From positions 24,431-88,430 of the forward strand of contig JAJYDJ010000001.1 in assembly GCA_021777565.1 (NCBI GenBank): a stretch of 64,000 nt of DNA. Direction: 5' to 3'. The position numbers were made by a program, and so were the translations under genes. The DNA comes from a bacterium. GTDB taxonomy: Bacteria > Patescibacteriota > Microgenomatia > Levybacterales > UBA12049. Shown one piece after another: positions 29,603 through 36,017 of this stretch (position 1 is its first letter; each line of letters starts with the position of its first letter). The notes under the pieces are model-generated. The model was not told the DNA's origin. It worked only from the letters and a program-made list of their open reading frames with translations, and made no database searches.

Positions 29603-31390
29603 TTAGCACAGGACAGGTATGGTACAATGAGGCCATCTGTCCTCGTAGCTCAGCTGGATAGAGCAGGCCCGTCCTAAGGGCAAGATCGGAGGTTCGAATC
29701 CTCTCGAGGACGCAGAAGACACTTTTTTATCTACAATTGTATAAATTGAAGCTAATTTTGGTGTTCCAATCTTTAATTCTTCATAAGTTGGTTGTTTATC
29801 AAATAACAACCCAAACATTGCGCCATTTTGGAGTGGATCTGTGCCTCCAAGTATCAATTCGTCTAGGTGTTCCATATAATATTTGAGGTTATTAATGAGT
29901 ACCTGTATATTTATTTGTTGCTCATCCTTTTTATCTCTCAGCACTGTTGCTTGCACTCTCTGTAACTCTAGCTTGTCTATATCTTCTTCCAAAGCCCTGA
30001 TAGCTACTTCGCTAGTAAGCATTTTTATCTTCCCTGCTAGCATAAGTTGTTGTTCTTTGATTGAGGCTACTTGTTGGTCTAGGGAGATAGTATCTTTCAT
30101 GATGCTTGCTTTTCTCTTTTCCCATTCAGACAAAAGTATTTCTTCCATTCTTTTTCTATATTTGTCTGTAAAATGCACATTTCCTACAAATGACGTTACT
30201 AGATCATGAACATCTTTCAGCTTAACACCAAAGCGTTTATGTCCTCTATTGCAATGATATGCTGGAAAGCGCTCTCCGGACTTGCCTGGAGTAGCACTGC
30301 CATAAAATTCTTTATTACATTTTGGGCAAAGGATTTGTTGCTTAAATGGGTATAGTGGATTAAGTTTATTCTTTTTCAGCTTCCATTCTTCGATTTGCCC
30401 TTTTATAACGAGTACTTCATTCGGATGGTCTTGTTGTTCAATAATTTTTACTTTGCCCCTATTGGCCTTATTAAATACCTCTATCGAGACTAATCCGCCG
30501 CCATACATTTTAATTGCTTTCCCGCCCGTCCACTTTTCTGTATTGATCCCCGCATAAATTGGATTTCTGATATACTCTTGCAATTGTTTTACTGCTAATG
30601 GTTTACCACCCGTATGCCCAATAATCTTTGTTCTGTCGTTTTTGTCGTACTTCCGTTTTATTCTGGATAAAAAACCCCTTGCATTAATTTCATAAACAAT
30701 TTCTCTATCTGATAGATTACCCTGTTCTCGTAGCTCAAACATGCGAATAAACCAAGAAGATTCTAGCGGATGAGGTTTCATTACAGATCGTAAACCGTGC
30801 GGAGTTTCTATCTTTACATTTATAAATCCCATTTGTGGCTGTCTTGTTTTATATCCTAATCTTGTATAATTAATTTCTGCACCAATCATTCGAGTTAAAA
30901 TATCTCGTACTTCTGCTTTAGCTCGTTCTGCCTCAAGTAACTCAGTTATCCAAGATGGGCTGTATTCACTCCACTTATATTGTGTGCCAAGATATGCCAA
31001 TGTATTGACTGTCTGAGAACTGATAATTCCATATGTATCGATAAGTGTAACTCCTGTCTTTGCAAATTCAGCTTTAAGATACCCATAAGTTGCACTACCT
31101 CCTCTTGTAACTCTATCTATGCTTTTAATAAAAGCAAATTTTATCTTGTTATTTTGATTTTTGCAGTATTCTATCGCTTTTATAAGAGGTTGTAGATCAA
31201 TGTCTCCACTTGCTGATTCAGTAAAATCAAATTGTTCTTTTATTACAATCTTGCAGGAATGCATTTGTTCAACACGACTTATTGCTTGGCCTACTTGCTT
31301 TTCTTGATCTTCAAGGCTATCACCGGTAAGTCCCTGTTTTTGACTTGAAACCCTACCTATGCTTATTCCGTAAAAAACTTGTAACTCCAT
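29603..31390 (-). CDS. Large serine recombinase (second copy). The ORF runs antisense through the whole of tRNA-Arg
   Basis: N-terminal resolvase motif ISIGRVSSQKQ. 595 aa with zinc ribbon CPKCN...YHCNRGH and a coiled coil. The C-terminal 36 codons are the antisense of tRNA-Arg. Confidence 0.75.
   Translation of the reverse strand: MELQVFYGISIGRVSSQKQGLTGDSLEDQEKQVGQAISRVEQMHSCKIVIKEQFDFTESASGDIDLQPLIKAIEYCKNQNNKIKFAFIKSIDRVTRGGSATYGYLKAEFAKTGVTLIDTYGIISSQTVNTLAYLGTQYKWSEYSPSWITELLEAERAKAEVRDILTRMIGAEINYTRLGYKTRQPQMGFINVKIETPHGLRSVMKPHPLESSWFIRMFELREQGNLSDREIVYEINARGFLSRIKRKYDKNDRTKIIGHTGGKPLAVKQLQEYIRNPIYAGINTEKWTGGKAIKMYGGGLVSIEVFNKANRGKVKIIEQQDHPNEVLVIKGQIEEWKLKKNKLNPLYPFKQQILCPKCNKEFYGSATPGKSGERFPAYHCNRGHKRFGVKLKDVHDLVTSFVGNVHFTDKYRKRMEEILLSEWEKRKASIMKDTISLDQQVASIKEQQLMLAGKIKMLTSEVAIRALEEDIDKLELQRVQATVLRDKKDEQQINIQVLINNLKYYMEHLDELILGGTDPLQNGAMFGLLFDKQPTYEELKIGTPKLASIYTIVDKKVSSASSRGFEPPILPLGRACSIQLSYEDRWPHCTIPVLC
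29639..29712 (+). tRNA. tRNA-Arg (anticodon CCT)
   Basis: Acceptor gtcctcg/cgaggac, D-stem gctc/gagc, anticodon loop gtCCTaa (U33, A37) and T-arm ggagg-ttcgaat-cctct. No encoded CCA. Confidence 0.7.
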
Positions 31391-31787
31391 AGCTTTATGG
31401 TAACACTATCATTTGGTAAATCTCAACTTTCCATTCTTTTGGTCGTCTAGAACACGATCTATGATAAGGTTAGCAAGTATACGCATGCGCTCTTCAATTT
31501 CTAATTCTTTTTTATTTTCTTCTAATCCTATCGTGGCGTTTTCAGTTGCAGTAGGCTTATGTATCATAAAAATGCCTCCCTCGTTTGCAGCTAGGGCGGG
31601 AGACCTAGCGCAAACCAGAAAGGCATTGACTTCTCCCGCTATTAACGAAAAAGCGCTTACAAAGCAACACGAAATTCGTGCTACCGTGTAAGCGCAGTCC
31701 TGCTAATCAGGGTTAGCCTCCTCGAGGTAACTTCTTCACCAATACTGTGTCAACAATTTTTGTACACTGTCAAGACCTGTTTTGAGC

Positions 31788-32126
31788 CTATTTCTGTGAT
31801 ATCTCAACCATTCCCTTAAACCTCTGTTTGATATATTTCAGCTTCAAACATGTCCTACAACCAATCAATCCTACTGCCGGATGTCTATACAAAACTCCTT
31901 TTCTTTTTCCACACAGAGAACACAAAAACCAAAACCTTTCACCGTGAAATAATGTCTTTGAAGTAGCGAGCTGTACAGATATTCCTAGAGCTTCAATCTG
32001 AGCTTCTACAAGCCTCCTGCGAAGCATTTTGTTTGCTTTTCTTACTAATTCATCAACAGAGATTCTTTGACAATTTTCCGCTACGAAGAAGTTTCCTAAA
32101 TCATATGGAGATAATGAATTACCCAT
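31788..32126 (-). CDS. Small zinc-ribbon hypothetical protein
   Basis: 112 aa carrying CSLCGKRKG....GCRTC (CxxC...CxxC). Confidence 0.4.
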   Translation of the reverse strand: MGNSLSPYDLGNFFVAENCQRISVDELVRKANKMLRRRLVEAQIEALGISVQLATSKTLFHGERFWFLCSLCGKRKGVLYRHPAVGLIGCRTCLKLKYIKQRFKGMVEISQK

Positions 32127-32676
32127 GTTGCTCCTGTATTACTTGGTTTTGACCAACAATAGCTGTTTCTGTTTTGATATTCACTTGTAGCTGAGGCTGT
32201 TTCATTATTTTAAGCGCTTGGAGAGATGAAAGGTATTGTCGTATTGCTCTATCAAGATCTTTACTTAATAACCCAAAAAGGATTAGATCCGCATTATTCA
32301 TATTGCTATCGTAGATGTAACGATTAAGTCTGCGTTCTAGGTCTAGCATGCGGATATAGGAGAGAGTCGCTAGTTCAACAGTTGCCTTCTCACTTACTGT
32401 AGTGCAGTTATACTCTTTTTGCAGGTCTCTTAACATTTGGATACCAAATGTTTTATACGGCTCGGATACGTTAGTTGCCAGTAGGAAGCCACTCTCAAAC
32501 TCAGATAAAGAAATTGCCTGAAAGAGATCTCCTTTTGCTGTAATGTCTCTCTTGTCTTGCTTTTTTTCAAGCTCTTTCTTTGCATTTTTTATAACTGTAT
32601 TTGGATCACAGGGCAGACTAATCCCAAGTTCTCTCAATACATCTTTAGATTCATTTTGTTTAACAATGCTATCCAT
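32119..32676 (-). CDS. Hypothetical protein in island 2
   Basis: 185-aa ORF whose stop overlaps the start of the downstream gene, suggesting translational coupling. Confidence 0.4.
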   Translation of the reverse strand: MDSIVKQNESKDVLRELGISLPCDPNTVIKNAKKELEKKQDKRDITAKGDLFQAISLSEFESGFLLATNVSEPYKTFGIQMLRDLQKEYNCTTVSEKATVELATLSYIRMLDLERRLNRYIYDSNMNNADLILFGLLSKDLDRAIRQYLSSLQALKIMKQPQLQVNIKTETAIVGQNQVIQEQHG

Positions 32677-32719: not shown

Positions 32720-32926
32720 TTATTCAAGGAGATCTTTTGGAGATACTTTTAAGGCTTTTGCTAGCTTTTGTATTGTTTTCAAGGTTGGATTTCTTTTTCC
32801 GGCTTCAATAGCAATTATAGATTTTGGGTCTACCTTTGTAAGTTCTGCTAGCTTTTCTTGCGAAAACTTTCTCCCTTTACGTAAATTTCGCACATTCTCG
32901 CCGAGTTTTTGATAAGTATTTGTCAT
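32720..32926 (-). CDS. XRE-family HTH regulator
   Basis: LRKGRKFSQEKLAELTKVDPKSIIAIEAGKRNPTLKTIQKLAKALKV is an HTH_3 pattern. It is paralogous to the island 1 regulator. Confidence 0.75.
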   Translation of the reverse strand: MTNTYQKLGENVRNLRKGRKFSQEKLAELTKVDPKSIIAIEAGKRNPTLKTIQKLAKALKVSPKDLLE

Positions 32927-33032
32927 GGAATTGACAGGATTATGGAATATATGTCAGAATCTGAACAGGAAATATATTCCAGTTTTAGCTTTGGTCTCAA
33001 ACCTAAATCGCAAAATAAATAACTAAAAATCT

Positions 33033-33224
33033 ATGAAAACAATTTTTATTAAGCCATTGAGCATTCTTATTGCGCTTACCTGCCTCGTAGTAATCACATA
33101 TTTTGGCATCATGATTTATAAAGAGCTTACGCCTCCTTCTTATAACGACCAGAAAATGCAATGTTTAGAACTGGGGAGTAATTTGCGATATAGACAATGT
33201 ATGCAAATGATAAATCAAAAATAA
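33033..33224 (+). CDS. Small membrane protein
   Basis: 63 aa with a single transmembrane helix. First gene of a plus-strand run in island 2. Confidence 0.3.
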   Translation: MKTIFIKPLSILIALTCLVVITYFGIMIYKELTPPSYNDQKMQCLELGSNLRYRQCMQMINQK

Positions 33225-33683
33225 ATGATTCAAAAAATAGGATTAAAATTTATTGATTCTTTTTGGGTATATTTAATAATTGGCGCAATTGGATTAGCTG
33301 GATACTTGTTTTACATAAATCATCAAGATCAACAAAAACAGATTGAGCAGCATAAACAAGAAGTAAAGGCTAATAAAGAAGATGCACTTGTAAAAGTTGC
33401 GAATATAAAATATATAAAAACCCTCATTCCTATTTGTGATAAAAAAGTTAAGGATATTACAGGTATTGATTTTTTTCGTTGTGAAAAATTGTCTGATATT
33501 AATATCATTCAGGTACTCTACCTTAGCGGTATTTTAGACCTTAAATCCTCTCTCGCAGACCCAAATATTCCTGAGATTTGTCAAAAAAAGATAGGAGAAA
33601 TTTCAGCAAGTGATTTTATTGACTGCCTAAATGAACCAACACCTGAACCAGATCAACCATCAAGTAGTCAATCAGTGCAATAA
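33225..33683 (+). CDS. Hypothetical membrane-anchored protein
   Basis: 152 aa with an N-terminal transmembrane helix. Start overlaps the upstream stop. Confidence 0.4.
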   Translation: MIQKIGLKFIDSFWVYLIIGAIGLAGYLFYINHQDQQKQIEQHKQEVKANKEDALVKVANIKYIKTLIPICDKKVKDITGIDFFRCEKLSDINIIQVLYLSGILDLKSSLADPNIPEICQKKIGEISASDFIDCLNEPTPEPDQPSSSQSVQ

Positions 33684-33715: not shown

Positions 33716-34021
33716 ATGAAAAAAGGTATAGGGATAGTATCCGCAATATTTTTACTGTATGGGATGGGGTATGGACACGCTTATTCATACTATGAATTTC
33801 TTAGGTGGGCAACTTTTCTCTCTTCATTATTCTTTTCTTGGAGGTTTTATAAATCAAAAACTTTTGTTGGTATTGCAATATTTCTTACTATTGCCTATTT
33901 ATTTAATCCTATTTTTCCTGTCTACCTTCAAAAATCAACCTGGGTAACTATTGATTTTATTGCTGCAATAATCTTGATTATTGGTGGTTTTTATAAAGCT
34001 AAAAACGATGTAGTTATCTAA
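33716..34021 (+). CDS. Small polytopic membrane protein
   Basis: 101 aa with three hydrophobic helices. Confidence 0.35.
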   Translation: MKKGIGIVSAIFLLYGMGYGHAYSYYEFLRWATFLSSLFFSWRFYKSKTFVGIAIFLTIAYLFNPIFPVYLQKSTWVTIDFIAAIILIIGGFYKAKNDVVI

Positions 34022-34022
34022 A

Positions 34023-35123
34023 ATGATGAAAAATTCAATAAAGATAGTAGCGCAAATATTCTTTTCTCTAGCAACAACAGCTATTTTTGCAATCAATTTT
34101 CTAAGTGGAATTGTCGGTGGTATTTGGCTGTTACTTGCAGGAGGATGGGCATTGATACTTCAAGGAATAATTATGGGAATAATTATGCCTTATGTCTTTT
34201 CAATAGTAAGCGCACCTACATTTCTCATAGTACCTTTTGCAGAGAAGCTCAAGAATAACAAAATAGCTTTAGCAATAGTATTGTTTTTTGCCTCCATCTT
34301 CAACTACGGACCCCTACTGTTGTGGGTAAATTTTGTCTTTTACAAGTTTGTTTCAAATAATCAATTTCCTTTCATAGCTCTCATTTTGGCTGGATATGCA
34401 ACTGTGATGAGTCCTTTGAGTTATATGACAAGCCATGAAAACGAAGGAGGTTTAGGAACGACTTTGGGCTTACTTTACGCACAGTTGTGTTATTTGTTTT
34501 TAGTTCTCGGTTTACTATTTCAATGGAACCCATCCTCTGTATTTTGGTCTGAAATATGGCTAGCGTTACTTTTCATGTTGTTAAGTGTATTTACTCTTTC
34601 CACAGTGAAATTTGAGGAAGACGTTTCAATAGATGAAGATATATTTGCAGATCCACTTGTGGAGGAGGCTATCACAATTTGCTTTTCCTATGAAAAAGTT
34701 AGTCCAGCATTATTTCAGAGAGCTTTAGGTATCGATTATGAGAAAGCAACAGAAATATTCAAGGAGCTTAACAGGAAAAGACTAATAGGAAATATTAGGA
34801 TTGAAGATCAAGAAGATTTAATGCCAATAGGAAAGGTGAGCAAACGAAAACTTAAAAAGTATGAATACCTAATAAAAAAGGTAAAAGAATATAAAAAATA
34901 CCAATATCTAAACAGTTCTCCAAATGATCCCTTCCTTGACCAAGCAAAACAGTATGCATATGAATTTGAAACAATTGTCCCAGAGGATATTCAAAGAAAA
35001 TTTAAGACAGGATATGCACGAGCTGCCAAAATATTAGATCAACTAGAATTAGCTGATATTATTGTAAGCGTGCCGGGAAAAAGATATAGGAAAGTAAATA
35101 AAAATCCTGAAATACCCTATTAA
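34023..35123 (+). CDS. Polytopic membrane protein with two C-terminal FtsK-gamma-like winged-helix domains and no ATPase motor
   Basis: Five to six N-terminal transmembrane helices. Then DPLVEEAITICFSYEKVSPALFQRALGIDYEKATEIFKELNRKRLIG and DPFLDQAKQYAYEFETIVPEDIQRKFKTGYARAAKILDQLELADIIVSVPGKRYRKV. The second closely matches the FtsK gamma consensus ...LQRRLRIGYNRAARLIDQLE..GIV....GSKPREV. Confidence 0.55.
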   Translation: MMKNSIKIVAQIFFSLATTAIFAINFLSGIVGGIWLLLAGGWALILQGIIMGIIMPYVFSIVSAPTFLIVPFAEKLKNNKIALAIVLFFASIFNYGPLLLWVNFVFYKFVSNNQFPFIALILAGYATVMSPLSYMTSHENEGGLGTTLGLLYAQLCYLFLVLGLLFQWNPSSVFWSEIWLALLFMLLSVFTLSTVKFEEDVSIDEDIFADPLVEEAITICFSYEKVSPALFQRALGIDYEKATEIFKELNRKRLIGNIRIEDQEDLMPIGKVSKRKLKKYEYLIKKVKEYKKYQYLNSSPNDPFLDQAKQYAYEFETIVPEDIQRKFKTGYARAAKILDQLELADIIVSVPGKRYRKVNKNPEIPY

Positions 35124-35342
35124 CCTCTCGTTCTTTAATACAAAATAACTCATTTATGTCTTAATAAAGCTAAAAAGCGTTAGTTCAATACCGCTTGAGG
35201 TATCTTCATTTAATAGTTATGTATATAATACTTGTGCCTGGGGGATTATAATTCCAAACTGCTGAAATACTGAAATCATTCTGCTAGAATACAAACTGAG
35301 CGTGTTCCAAAAATTAAGGTCAAAGCACACTAGAAAAGTGGG

Positions 35343-36017
35343 TTATGCGGCAATACGGCGAGGTTCTTCAAATTCGTCTTCAGGCAGGGTTTCCATCTTT
35401 TTAGATTCAACTTGTACAAGCTGTCGATAAAGACTTTCTAATTGCTCGCGAGCTTGTCCTGCTGGCAGTGAGATCATTAATCTTCGTACGTTATTGAGTG
35501 TTGCATGAATATCTTCCAGTGAAAGTGTTTCAAGTGCCACTGTGGCTGCAACAATCGTTACTCGTGCTTCTGCGATAGCATCCTGTACCTGTGCTTCTTG
35601 TGCTGGAGCGAGTTCGGAATCCTTCTCGGTAAGACTATCGGTGATTTCCTGGACATTGACAGCCTCACTGACGGCAGTACTTGTTCCTTGATATCCTACG
35701 ACCAAGGCGCCTGCACTATCCAAGTTTACCTGTATATCACCCATAGCCTGTGCACGCTCTTCTCTTGGAAGAAGTGCCATTGCAGCGATGTTTTGAACTT
35801 TGCCTTGGATACGGTCTCTTGTGGCTGCATCTCTCTGTCCAGCCTCACTTGCTGCGTAGGCAGTATCTGAGAGTCTGTCATTGATTGCTTGGATTCTGAT
35901 GACTGCTGCTGCGACGACGTAGGCACGATCGTGTGAGAGAGGGGATTCAGGGGTGCGAACTGGCTGGGCTATTTCAGCTTTTGCGGTGGCAGTGGTTGTT
36001 TCTGTTACTAATGCCAT
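35343..36017 (-). CDS. Hypothetical Ala/Glu-rich protein, GC-rich
   Basis: 224-aa ORF with helical-type composition. The local GC shift marks the edge of island 2. Confidence 0.4.
   Translation of the reverse strand: MALVTETTTATAKAEIAQPVRTPESPLSHDRAYVVAAAVIRIQAINDRLSDTAYAASEAGQRDAATRDRIQGKVQNIAAMALLPREERAQAMGDIQVNLDSAGALVVGYQGTSTAVSEAVNVQEITDSLTEKDSELAPAQEAQVQDAIAEARVTIVAATVALETLSLEDIHATLNNVRRLMISLPAGQAREQLESLYRQLVQVESKKMETLPEDEFEEPRRIAA

What the first reader, a model, noticed from the sequence alone, without database searches (positions are those of the whole stretch)
34023..35123. Membrane protein with tandem FtsK-gamma winged-helix domains but no translocase motor
The KOPS-reading gamma domain of FtsK/SpoIIIE normally follows the RecA-like motor. 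Here two gamma-like wHTH copies (the second matching the consensus closely) are fused to a five-to-six transmembrane-helix N-terminal region with no ATPase. A membrane-tethered, sequence-directed DNA anchor on a mobile element could act in element partitioning or exclusion, or could modulate host FtsK/Xer.
Basis: partly seen in the sequence, partly recalled or inferred. Interest (0 to 1): 0.55.

Follow-up and report, generated by a model that had tools for sequence, protein, structure and literature searches.

The report
Membrane protein with two FtsK-gamma domains
A small integrated genetic island encodes a membrane protein whose cytoplasmic tail carries two copies of the DNA-reading domain of the chromosome pump FtsK but no pump. 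It is a rare hybrid of a known DNA-binding domain and an undescribed membrane-protein family, and it probably holds DNA at the membrane, though its biological role is untested.

Summary
ORF 34023-35123 (+, 366 aa) has a polytopic membrane N-terminus, two FtsK_gamma domains that each pass Pfam's threshold, and no ATPase. An MSA-based AlphaFold model (pLDDT 84.6) has solved FtsK gamma domains as its ten best PDB matches.

1. The membrane part is an undescribed family (at least 182 clusters, no Pfam, bacteria and DPANN archaea). Its gene is often paired with a DUF6804 gene, as it is here. The gamma tandem is one rare tail among several; others are zinc ribbons, DUF805, a receiver-like domain and a J-domain.
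2. The two copies differ. Gamma2 is basic, winged and near-canonical at the XerD/KOPS-contact positions. Gamma1 is acidic, has no predicted wing, is charge-reversed in the recognition helix, and belongs with a family of ~80-aa acidic standalone proteins.
3. The gene lies on a 5.6-kb low-GC island with a large serine integrase, next to tRNA-Arg.

Motor-less gamma proteins are common in metagenomes and phages but uncharacterised. Several relatives sit beside restriction-modification or toxin genes.

The best reading is a membrane-tethered dsDNA binder serving the element. KOPS reading and Xer modulation are unsupported. I rate it a new variant of a known kind, of moderate interest.

The parts
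29639..29713 (+). tRNA-Arg(CCT); the low-GC island begins immediately 3' of it (probable integration site)
   Evidence: ARAGORN and Rfam; sequence and GC profile
29603..31390 (-). Large serine recombinase (595 aa), the island's integrase. Its last ~37 codons read antisense through tRNA-Arg.
   Evidence: phrog_95 'integrase' at E=2e-21. N-terminal GRVSSQKQ...SLEDQ catalytic-serine motif, a Cys-rich segment and a coiled coil read from the translation. No Pfam hit at E<=0.01.
31788..32676 (-). Two overlapping small ORFs (112 aa, Cys-rich; 185 aa) of unknown function, co-oriented with the integrase
   Evidence: no family hits
32720..32926 (-). XRE/Cro-type HTH repressor (68 aa)
   Evidence: Pfam HTH_3 at 59 bits; PHROG transcriptional regulators
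32927..33032 (.). Divergent control region with promoter-like sites on both strands and an inverted repeat TGGAATATAT...ATATATTCCA
   Evidence: promoter-like counts are not above chance for the region as a whole
33033..33683 (+). Two small membrane-anchored, Cys-containing proteins (63 aa and 152 aa); the first genes of the rightward operon
33716..34021 (+). DUF6804 small membrane protein (101 aa). Its stop codon lies 1 nt before the target's ATG. It is the conserved partner of the membrane module.
   Evidence: Pfam DUF6804 at 71.9 bits. A DUF6804 gene directly upstream of, or overlapping, the module gene in L003, L006, L009 and L010, and within 1-3 kb in L005/L012, L007 and L015.
34023..34613 (+). 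Target residues 1-197: polytopic membrane module of an undescribed family (motifs NFLSGIVGGIWL, MP, PLSYM.S.E..G.GT.LG..AQ)
34647..34808 (+). Gamma1 (residues 209-262): acidic FtsK-gamma-like three-helix domain with no predicted wing. It follows an acidic segment (residues 198-208, net charge -6).
   Evidence: Pfam 34.8 bits; profile match to 2j5o/2ve8; residue map; charge; model; ~80-aa homologues
34833..34919 (+). Lysine-rich helical linker (residues 271-299, net charge +9, pI 10.1)
34920..35108 (+). Gamma2 (residues 300-362): canonical winged-helix FtsK gamma domain with a basic wing (GKRYRKVNK)
   Evidence: Pfam 47.5 bits; 2j5p at E=1e-5; Foldseek top hits 2j5p/2ve8/2ve9; residue map
35124..35342 (.). 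AT-rich spacer in which GC returns to the host level (~35.3 kb); approximate right end of the island
   Evidence: No att-type repeat of the tRNA 3' end was found, as expected for a serine integrase.

Best explanation
The ORF encodes a chimeric inner-membrane protein.

Shown:
- Residues 1-197 are a polytopic module of a widespread but undescribed membrane-protein family whose gene is recurrently paired with a DUF6804 small membrane protein, as it is here.
- Residues 198-366 are a tail containing an acidic gamma-like domain with no predicted wing (gamma1), a lysine-rich helix, and a basic, winged, near-canonical FtsK gamma domain (gamma2).
- There is no motor.
- The gene is the last of a four-gene membrane-protein operon on a 5.6-kb serine-integrase island inserted next to tRNA-Arg.

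Inferred:
- The tail is cytoplasmic.
- Gamma2 together with the basic linker binds double-stranded DNA, so the protein holds DNA against the inner face of the membrane next to the DUF6804/module pair.
- The gamma tandem is one interchangeable cytoplasmic 'adaptor' of this membrane pair. Zinc ribbons, a receiver-like domain and a J-domain fill the same position in relatives.

Speculative:
- Gamma1 is too acidic to bind DNA. It may act as a protein-contact or self-masking (DNA-mimicking) element.
- The pay-off is an accessory function for the element, such as exclusion of or competition with incoming DNA, rather than KOPS-guided chromosome segregation.
For: Architecture and fold.

No motor.

Module family and DUF6804 pairing:
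- The module-plus-two-gamma gene and the DUF6804 gene are the only genes shared by two otherwise unrelated tRNA-adjacent low-GC islets (window and L003, 33% and 46% identity).
- DUF6804 is adjacent to or near the module gene in 7 of 10 further distinct loci from several phyla.
- The census gives at least 182 clusters. Of 122 examined, 99 are standalone, and gamma occurs only in P0001, P0019 and P0008.

Cytoplasmic tail: relatives carry zinc ribbons at either end, a DnaJ domain (E=4e-5) or a receiver-like domain.

DNA-binding competence of gamma2:
- Q1288, R1289, G1294, Y1295, R1297 and E1306 are identical.
- R1292K, R1300K and E1303D are conservative changes; only N1296A is lost (residue roles from PMC5052618 and PMC2680272).
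- The wing is basic, the linker carries +9, and the model lies 1.2 A rmsd from KOPS-bound 2ve9.

Gamma1 divergence: E/K/N at positions 1300/1303/1306, pI 5.0, no wing strands. It is homologous to ~19 acidic ~80-aa proteins.

Mobile setting.

Accessory or defence-like neighbourhoods of relatives:
- TM-plus-two-gamma proteins P0015, P0012 and P0029 lie beside type I R-M, OLD/AAA_15, PD-(D/E)XK, DUF2726 and Zeta-toxin genes.
- Gamma1-like proteins lie beside a type III-like R-M pair and a Panacea-like gene; these two identities were read by eye.
Against: - No DNA binding, localisation or phenotype has been measured.
- No candidate binding site was found: no repeated motif array in the island and no known KOPS/SRS motif in the window.
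- In the sister protein P0019, neither gamma copy keeps the canonical residues at 1300/1303/1306. The family therefore does not conserve one DNA-reading surface, and the tail may be a protein-binding element.
- No PADLOC defence model matches any island protein.
- The defence-island association rests on a handful of loci, has no statistics, and fails for P0017.
- Pooled neighbours of module genes show no recurrent partner other than DUF6804.
- Most module proteins have no tail at all, so the core function of the membrane pair does not require DNA.
- The membrane module could not be modelled confidently (single-sequence pLDDT 50), so its activity is unknown.
Confidence: 0.5

Rival explanations
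1. DNA-triggered membrane effector, following defence or abortive-infection logic. The membrane module, together with DUF6804, is the effector, for example a pore or permeability switch. The cytoplasmic tail is the sensor, and binding of foreign or aberrant DNA by gamma2 switches the effector on. Gamma1 acts as an intramolecular mask.
For: The tails of the family look like input domains: receiver-like, zinc ribbon, two gamma domains. Gamma-tandem and gamma1-like relatives lie beside R-M, OLD, Zeta-toxin and Panacea-like genes. The gene is cargo of an integrative island. The acidic gamma1 beside the basic gamma2 suits auto-inhibition.
Against: There is no PADLOC hit. About 80% of module proteins lack any sensor-like tail. 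Neighbourhoods of module genes are heterogeneous, and one gamma-tandem relative sits among sugar-modification genes. Nothing points to toxicity or pore formation.
Confidence: 0.15
2. Membrane-bound one-component transcription regulator of the ToxR/CadC type. The membrane module senses a signal, and the winged-helix tail binds an operator and regulates island or host genes.
For: The tail is a wHTH. After FtsK gamma, the next fold matches are MarR, GntR and ROK-type regulators. A relative carries a receiver-like domain. The island has a divergent control region.
Against: No FtsK_gamma-type wHTH is described as a transcription factor in the papers found here. The island already has an XRE repressor beside its inverted-repeat operator. 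No repeated candidate operator for a tandem wHTH was found. Other tails in the family (J-domain, DUF805) do not fit a regulator.
Confidence: 0.12
3. Modulator of the host FtsK/XerCD machinery. The membrane-tethered gamma domains contact XerD, either activating or titrating it, or they compete with host FtsK for its DNA motifs. This would influence dimer resolution or element maintenance.
For: Both copies keep Q1288 and R1289, and R1289 is the residue most critical for XerD activation. Isolated gamma fused to XerC or XerD activates recombination (PMC5052618). An acidic gamma1 that cannot bind DNA could be a pure protein-contact domain.
Against: The Q-R pair is near-invariant in all gamma-like domains, including phage fusions, so it is uninformative. 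Other XerD contacts are lost: N1296A in gamma2, and R1292G, G1294D and N1296E in gamma1. The island uses its own serine integrase at a tRNA, not Xer at dif. No xer, ftsK or dif is visible in the window, and no KOPS-like motif is present.
Confidence: 0.1
4. Non-functional relic or chance fusion. On this view a decayed FtsK fragment became fused to an unrelated membrane gene, and no function is selected.
For: FtsK fragments and orphan pieces do exist in the data. P0013 is a contig-end fragment, and an orphan FtsK_alpha gene lies next to P0029.
Against: The same module-plus-two-gamma architecture, with the same DUF6804 partner, is intact at 33% identity in an unrelated genome. P0008 keeps the module plus gamma1 at 47% identity. 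The ORF is identical on independent metagenome contigs. Both domains pass Pfam thresholds and fold confidently.
Confidence: 0.03

Closest known systems
FtsK/SpoIIIE gamma domain (PF09397; solved structures 2j5p, 2j5o, 2ve8, 2ve9, 5dcf)
   Same: Both copies match the Pfam model above threshold. Gamma2 has the same winged-helix fold (TM 0.76-0.87) and keeps or conservatively replaces most of the XerD- and KOPS-contact residues checked.
   Different: There is no alpha/beta RecA-like motor and no FtsK_4TM N-terminus. There are two copies in tandem instead of one C-terminal copy. Gamma1 is acidic, has no predicted wing and is charge-reversed in the recognition helix. No KOPS-type motif is present in the surrounding DNA.
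Motor-less gamma proteins of phages: the N-terminal FtsK_gamma of the Sam46/Sam112 small terminase (PMC8190038), single gamma fused to RdgC/exonuclease-like proteins, and PHROGs 13700, 22882, 36563 and 6576
   Same: A gamma domain is used without a translocase on a mobile genetic element, presumably as a DNA-recognition module.
   Different: The phage proteins are soluble and have a single gamma. None of 80 viral loci examined had a tandem or a multi-TM region. Their function is also unknown; the paper says so explicitly.
Uncharacterised tandem-gamma proteins of metagenomes (~150-260 aa, often with one N-terminal hydrophobic segment; for example P0012, P0015, P0029)
   Same: Two gamma domains, no motor, and often membrane-anchored. 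They are complete genes on long contigs, several in R-M or toxin neighbourhoods.
   Different: Both of their copies are canonical and winged (80-90 bits each in my HMM). The anchor is a single helix, not the DUF6804-paired module, and there is no acidic gamma1 subtype.
Undescribed DUF6804-associated membrane-protein family (P0002-P0007, P0154-P0266; no Pfam model)
   Same: Residues 1-197 of the target are a full-length member (245 bits to the family HMM, invariant N25, F26, W35, L36, G48, P65) with the typical upstream DUF6804 gene.
   Different: About 80% of members are ~197-aa standalone proteins. Only three clusters (the target, P0019, P0008) carry gamma domains.
FtsK variants with two gamma domains placed before the motor (P0033, P0043, P0111; also P0082, P0109, P0064)
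   Same: The order 'membrane domain, two gamma domains' is the same as in the target.
   Different: Those continue into an FtsK alpha/motor region, and their membrane domain is unrelated to the target's module (phmmer finds no hit).
Kiwa (KwaA membrane protein plus DNA-binding KwaB) and other two-gene membrane-plus-DNA-binder defence systems. This is an analogy recalled from my own knowledge, not tested here.
   Same: The logic is similar: a small membrane protein paired with a DNA-binding partner, found in variable genomic regions.
   Different: No sequence relationship was detected; PADLOC models give no hit.

Membership tests
FtsK/SpoIIIE DNA translocase | RecA-like alpha/beta motor with Walker A/B (PF01580, PF17854) | tested here: not met
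   No Pfam or NCBIfam motor match and no Walker A motif
FtsK/SpoIIIE DNA translocase | N-terminal FtsK-type 4TM division-septum domain (PF13491) | tested here: not met
   Residues 1-197 have no Pfam hit even at E<=10. They belong to a different family.
FtsK/SpoIIIE DNA translocase | Single C-terminal gamma domain following the motor | tested here: not met
   Two gamma copies follow a membrane module directly
FtsK_gamma domain (PF09397) | Sequence match above Pfam's gathering score | tested here: met
   34.8 and 47.5 bits separately against a 30.6-bit cutoff
FtsK_gamma domain (PF09397) | Winged-helix fold superposable on solved gamma domains | tested here: met
   The model has pLDDT 84.6, and its top ten PDB matches are FtsK gamma. 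This applies to gamma2. Gamma1 shows the three-helix core but no wing strands, and it could not be searched separately.
FtsK_gamma domain (PF09397) | KOPS-recognition residues R1300, E1303, E1306 (E. coli numbering) | tested here: inconclusive
   Gamma2 has K/D/E (conservative). Gamma1 has E/K/N (not conserved). See; residue roles from PMC2680272.
FtsK_gamma domain (PF09397) | Binding to an 8-bp polar motif that is over-represented and strand-skewed in the genome | tested here: inconclusive
   No known KOPS/SRS motif and no skewed G-rich octamer in 64 kb. The window is too short for motif discovery, and binding itself cannot be tested with these tools.
FtsK_gamma domain (PF09397) | Activation of XerD through Q1288, R1289, R1292, I1293, G1294 and N1296 | not testable with these tools
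   Q and R are kept in both copies, but N1296 is lost in both, and R1292 and G1294 are lost in gamma1. No XerD is available to test.
DUF6804-associated membrane module (undescribed family) | Full-length match with conserved motifs NF.SGI.GG.WL and PLSYM..KE | tested here: met
   (244.5 bits to the family HMM)
DUF6804-associated membrane module (undescribed family) | DUF6804 gene adjacent or nearby | tested here: met
   Window positions 33716-34021 lie directly upstream. The same arrangement occurs in L003, L006, L009 and L010, and a DUF6804 gene lies nearby in L005/L012, L007 and L015.
Integrative island with a large serine recombinase | Serine recombinase with a catalytic-Ser motif, zinc ribbon and coiled coil | tested here: inconclusive
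   phrog_95 integrase at E=2e-21, and the motif GRVSSQKQ..SLEDQ read from the sequence. However, there is no Pfam Resolvase/Recombinase hit at E<=0.01 and no PDB hit.
Integrative island with a large serine recombinase | Compositional island bounded by a tRNA gene | tested here: met
   GC is 0.30-0.39 from 29,715 to ~35,300 against ~0.44-0.49 in the flanks, and the tract starts at the tRNA-Arg 3' end
Integrative island with a large serine recombinase | Recognisable attL/attR or an empty site in a related genome | tested here: not met
   No repeat of the tRNA 3' end was found. Serine integrases need only a 2-bp crossover, so this is weak evidence. No empty site was available.
Known anti-phage defence systems (PADLOC-DB 2.0) | Match of any island protein to a defence-system model | tested here: not met
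   No hit for eight island proteins at E<=0.01

The most novel reading that the evidence does not exclude
The DUF6804 protein and the membrane module form a new, widespread two-component membrane device whose cytoplasmic tail sets its trigger or cargo. In the gamma-tailed version, carried by small integrative islands, the device captures or senses double-stranded DNA at the membrane and so acts as a new kind of exclusion or defence system against incoming DNA. The acidic gamma1 would be a built-in DNA-mimic mask, related to a family of ~80-aa acidic gamma-like proteins found beside restriction-modification systems.
Probability: 0.15. Interest if true: 0.75.

Novelty: new variant of a known kind. 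Interest (0 to 1): 0.45.

Why it matters
The gamma domain has been studied almost entirely as the sequence-reading and XerD-activating tip of the FtsK/SpoIIIE motor. This locus, and the survey it prompted, show that gamma domains are used widely without any motor. They occur singly in phage proteins, in tandem in small and often membrane-anchored proteins, and here on a conserved but undescribed membrane family paired with DUF6804. None of these has a known function.

If gamma2 does tether DNA to the membrane, the protein would be a simple, testable model for how mobile elements use a chromosome-segregation reading head for their own purposes. It would also give a first functional handle on two families of unknown function: DUF6804 and its partner module, which has at least 182 clusters across bacteria and DPANN archaea. 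The split into an acidic wing-less subtype and a basic winged subtype suggests that part of the 'gamma' family has left DNA binding altogether.

Tried and rejected
- Word-indexed homology search with the C-terminal tail alone found nothing. It was replaced by the exhaustive HMMER search.
- The single-sequence AlphaFold model of the whole protein was too poor to use (pLDDT 50). The membrane module therefore has no usable model and no fold search.
- No att repeat of the tRNA-Arg 3' end was found. I do not count this against an island, because serine integrases use a 2-bp crossover.
- Plasmid collection: no relative.
- PADLOC: no defence-model hit.
- PDB sequence search for the integrase: nothing.
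- Literature: no paper on DUF6804, and none describing motor-less tandem-gamma proteins. The Verrucomicrobium and Cluster J mycobacteriophage papers concern motor-containing FtsK.
- I first read all short gamma hits as motor-less proteins. P0013 proved to be a contig-end fragment of a real FtsK followed by lolA, so I screened for motor remnants. Only P0013, P0040, P0076, P0122 and P0153 among the short hits show them.
- Context look-ups for the ~80-aa gamma1-like proteins P0016 and P0023 gave contigs too short to interpret.
- Alignments A2 and A4 were too diverse for pattern scans.
- Pooled Pfam of 86 neighbours of module genes showed no recurrent partner other than DUF6804.
- A search for KOPS/SRS motifs, skewed octamers and repeated k-mers in the island was negative.
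- The afdb50 fold library was unavailable.
- The host organism was not identified.
Full report
**1. The observation**

- The ORF is at 34023-35123 on the + strand and encodes 366 aa. An identical protein (P0001, called from the second Met) lies on independent ENA metagenome contigs with the same neighbours.
- Pfam FtsK_gamma matches at 75 bits in two stretches. Scanned separately, the two halves score 34.8 bits (residues ~209-256) and 47.5 bits (residues 301-358) against a 30.6-bit cutoff. Residues 1-197 match nothing even at E<=10.
- PDB sequence search finds the E. coli and P. aeruginosa gamma domains for copy 2, and a family profile finds them with both copies.
- There is no Walker A motif and no motor, alpha or 4TM match. 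No other gamma, FtsK or ATPase gene lies in the island or the window.
A single-sequence AlphaFold model was useless (pLDDT 50). A model of residues 198-366 built on a 74-sequence alignment reached pLDDT 84.6, with both gamma cores above 90.
- Its ten best PDB matches are all FtsK gamma structures, including the KOPS-bound form (TM 0.76-0.87 normalised to the target, rmsd 1.2-2.7 A).

**2. The two gamma copies are not equivalent**

I mapped both copies onto E. coli numbering. The XerD contacts come from Keller et al. (Q1288, R1289 critical, R1292, I1293, G1294, N1296). The KOPS-blind positions come from Sivanathan et al. (R1300, E1303, E1306).

| Position (E. coli) | 1288 | 1289 | 1292 | 1293 | 1294 | 1296 | 1300 | 1303 | 1306 |
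|---|---|---|---|---|---|---|---|---|---|
| E. coli FtsK | Q | R | R | I | G | N | R | E | E |
| Gamma2 | Q | R | K | T | G | A | K | D | E |
| Gamma1 | Q | R | G | I | D | E | E | K | N |

- Gamma2 is close to canonical. It has a basic wing (GKRYRKVNK) and a pI of 9.1.
- Gamma1 has a charge-reversed recognition helix and a pI of 5.0. It follows a stretch with net charge -6 and shows no wing strands in the model.
- A lysine-rich helix (residues 271-299, net charge +9) links the two copies.
- Gamma1 plus its C-terminal extension is homologous to about 19 standalone proteins of ~80 aa. These are mostly strongly acidic (net charge down to -11) and share a conserved Cys, an LFQR motif and a C-terminal Asn.
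- In the sister protein P0019, neither copy keeps the canonical 1300/1303/1306 residues.

**3. The membrane part is a conserved family with a partner gene**

- The first homology search hit only residues ~15-190, in ~210-aa proteins or in proteins fused to zinc ribbons or DUF805.
- Alignment shows invariant motifs: NF.SGI.GG.WL, MP, W101, Y125, and PLSYM..KE..G.GT.LG..AQ.
- A profile census finds at least 182 clusters, all unnamed and without Pfam. They come from bacteria (for example Nitrospiraceae, Omnitrophica) and DPANN archaea.
- Of 122 members examined, 99 are standalone. The rest carry zinc ribbons at either end, DUF805, a receiver-like domain (P0172), or gamma domains. Gamma occurs only in the target, in P0019 (two copies) and in P0008 (one copy, then a coiled coil and a DnaJ domain at E=4e-5).
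- These cytoplasmic-type domains at both ends argue that both termini, and hence the gamma tail, are cytoplasmic.
- In the window, a DUF6804 gene (71.9 bits) ends 1 nt before the target's start codon.
- The same pair, overlapping by 17 nt, occurs with P0019 in an NCBI assembly (L003). These are the only two genes shared by the two loci, at 46% and 33% identity.
- A scan of one genome per GTDB species found the module in ten loci from very different phyla: Dependentiae/TM6, Patescibacteria, Ignavibacteria, Gammaproteobacteria, Clostridia, Planctomycetota and Spirochaetota.
- DUF6804 lies directly upstream in L006, L009 and L010, and within 1-3 kb in L005/L012, L007 and L015.
- Pooled Pfam annotation of 86 other neighbours shows no further recurrent partner. 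There are only scattered mobile-element markers: a tyrosine integrase, a resolvase, Toprim primases, a transposase and GIY-YIG.
- No paper mentions DUF6804.

**4. The setting is a small integrative island**

- GC falls from ~0.47 to 0.30-0.39 between 29,715 and ~35,300. The drop begins at the last base of tRNA-Arg(CCT).
- The first gene (595 aa, - strand) matches PHROG 95 'integrase' (E=2e-21). It reads as a large serine recombinase, with a GRVSSQKQ...SLEDQ motif, a Cys-rich segment and a coiled coil. Pfam and PDB sequence searches do not detect it.
- Its last ~37 codons run antisense through the tRNA.
- No att repeat was found, which is expected for a serine integrase.
- The remaining genes are two small unknown ORFs, an XRE repressor, a divergent control region with an inverted repeat, and a rightward operon of four membrane proteins. 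The operon ends with DUF6804 and the target.
- L003 shows the same pattern: a 4.5-kb low-GC tract starting just after tRNA-Lys and tRNA-Glu.
- P0008 lies on a contig whose genes mostly lack Pfam matches and which looks phage- or element-like. One module-only member lies on a 54.7-kb viral contig.

**5. Motor-less gamma proteins are common but uncharacterised**

- An exhaustive HMMER search of 1.84 billion representative proteins with the tail gave 147 hits, nearly all 77-460 aa.
- In my domain and hydropathy analysis, about 85 have two gamma copies and about 45 have one. Several have a single N-terminal hydrophobic segment, and a few have other multi-TM regions.
- Some short hits are fragments of real FtsK. 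P0013 starts at a contig end and is followed by lolA. Motor remnants were detected in five short hits. Most hits are not fragments, and P0012, P0015, P0029 and P0017 are complete genes on long contigs.
- On viral contigs, 271 stretches encode gamma. Of the 80 examined, all have a single copy and 73 lack a Walker A motif. Typically these are C-terminal gamma on 290-410-aa proteins annotated RdgC or exonuclease. None has a tandem or is multi-TM.
- Four short PHROG families also carry a gamma-like segment.
- Published precedent is limited to the Sam46/Sam112 small terminase, which has an N-terminal FtsK_gamma domain. That paper states that the role of single gamma-like phage genes is unknown.
- The general idea of 'gamma without a motor' is therefore not new. 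The specific combination here occurs in only three clusters.

**6. Context of relatives**

| Relative | Neighbouring genes |
|---|---|
| P0015 | HsdM, AAA_15, HsdS, HsdR |
| P0012 | methylase, OLD-like ATPase, HsdS-like, PD-(D/E)XK/Cas4-like, DUF2726; a Zeta toxin two genes downstream |
| P0029 | an orphan FtsK_alpha gene directly upstream, near HsdS/DUF4145 |
| Gamma1-like (L112) | a type III-like R-M pair (identity read by eye) |
| Gamma1-like (L111) | a Panacea-like gene and GIY-YIG (identity read by eye) |
| P0017 | sugar-modification genes |

PADLOC matches nothing in the island. The association with defence-type neighbourhoods is suggestive, but it is anecdotal.

**7. Mechanism**

- Shown: the domain composition, the fold, the absence of a motor, the conserved DUF6804 partnership, and the island setting.
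- Inferred: the tail is cytoplasmic, and gamma2 with the basic linker binds dsDNA. The protein would then tether DNA to the membrane beside the DUF6804/module pair, with the tail acting as an exchangeable adaptor.
- Speculative: gamma1 is a protein-contact or self-masking element, and the role is exclusion of or competition with incoming DNA.
- KOPS reading is unsupported: no known motif and no skewed octamer was found, although 64 kb is too little for motif discovery.
- Xer modulation is unsupported: the island has its own serine integrase and sits at a tRNA, the Q-R pair is not diagnostic, and other contacts are lost.
- Rival readings (DNA-triggered membrane effector, membrane-bound regulator, Xer/FtsK modulator, relic) are listed with their evidence in the Rival explanations section.

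**8. Verdict**

This is a new variant of a known kind: a known DNA-binding domain, in two divergent subtypes, fused to an undescribed membrane family on a mini-island. Interest is moderate (0.45). The architecture is rare and points to two uncharacterised families and a possible non-DNA-binding gamma subtype, but motor-less gamma proteins are already abundant in databases and no function has been demonstrated.

Noticed in passing
window 29603-29713: The serine-integrase ORF continues ~37 codons antisense through tRNA-Arg(CCT) before its stop codon. The protein's present C-terminus is therefore encoded by tRNA sequence, which suggests the attachment site lay inside the 3' end of the integrase gene.
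   Followed up: partly
window 31568-31787: A GC-rich, non-coding-looking stretch (~0.42 GC within the AT-rich island) lies between the 52-aa ORF and the 112-aa ORF. It could be a structured RNA or a regulatory element. Rfam at gathering threshold found nothing there.
   Followed up: no
window 32940-32985: An inverted repeat, TGGAATATAT(N19)ATATATTCCA, lies in the divergent region between the XRE repressor and the membrane-protein operon. It is a likely operator.
   Followed up: no
window 35343-36017 (- strand): A 224-aa Ala/Glu/Gln-rich ORF of high GC (up to 0.52) with no family match lies just outside the island's right end.
   Followed up: no
P0033, P0043, P0111, P0082, P0109, P0064 (hits): These FtsK-like proteins have two gamma domains before the alpha/motor region (membrane domain, two gamma, alpha...; or gamma, motor, gamma). 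That is the reverse of the textbook order. Several are cut off by contig ends.
   Followed up: partly
L024-L026, 5487-6606: An orphan 167-aa FtsK_alpha-only gene sits directly upstream of a 201-aa protein with a hydrophobic N-terminus and two gamma domains (P0029). The sequence is widespread, indexed in 61 blocks of the collection. It amounts to an FtsK without its ATPase core.
   Followed up: no
A4 (P0016, P0023, P0026 ... P0151); L111 900-1133; L112 5965-6231: A family of ~80-aa, mostly strongly acidic gamma1-like proteins with conserved Cys, LFQR and a C-terminal Asn. Two informative loci place them beside a type III-like restriction-modification pair and a Panacea-like gene. They may be DNA mimics or regulators.
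   Followed up: partly
P0061 (560 aa, hit): Two N-terminal hydrophobic segments, three gamma domains, and a C-terminal region that by eye resembles a restriction-endonuclease (Mrr-like) domain. This identity was not tested.
   Followed up: no
L004 7738-9429 (P0008): Membrane module, gamma1-like domain, long coiled coil and a DnaJ J-domain in one 563-aa protein, on a contig whose genes mostly lack Pfam matches. No DUF6804 gene is nearby.
   Followed up: partly
P0172 (375 aa): Membrane module fused to a C-terminal response-regulator receiver-like domain. The usual phospho-acceptor Asp appears to be Glu (DLVIMEVMMPGMDG).
   Followed up: no
L006 2-4119: In a complete Dependentiae (TM6) genome, the DUF6804/module pair lies next to genes that read as a serine recombinase and a large primase-helicase-like protein. 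That suggests another integrated element. The pooled Pfam scan did not map its Resolvase and Toprim hits to individual loci.
   Followed up: partly
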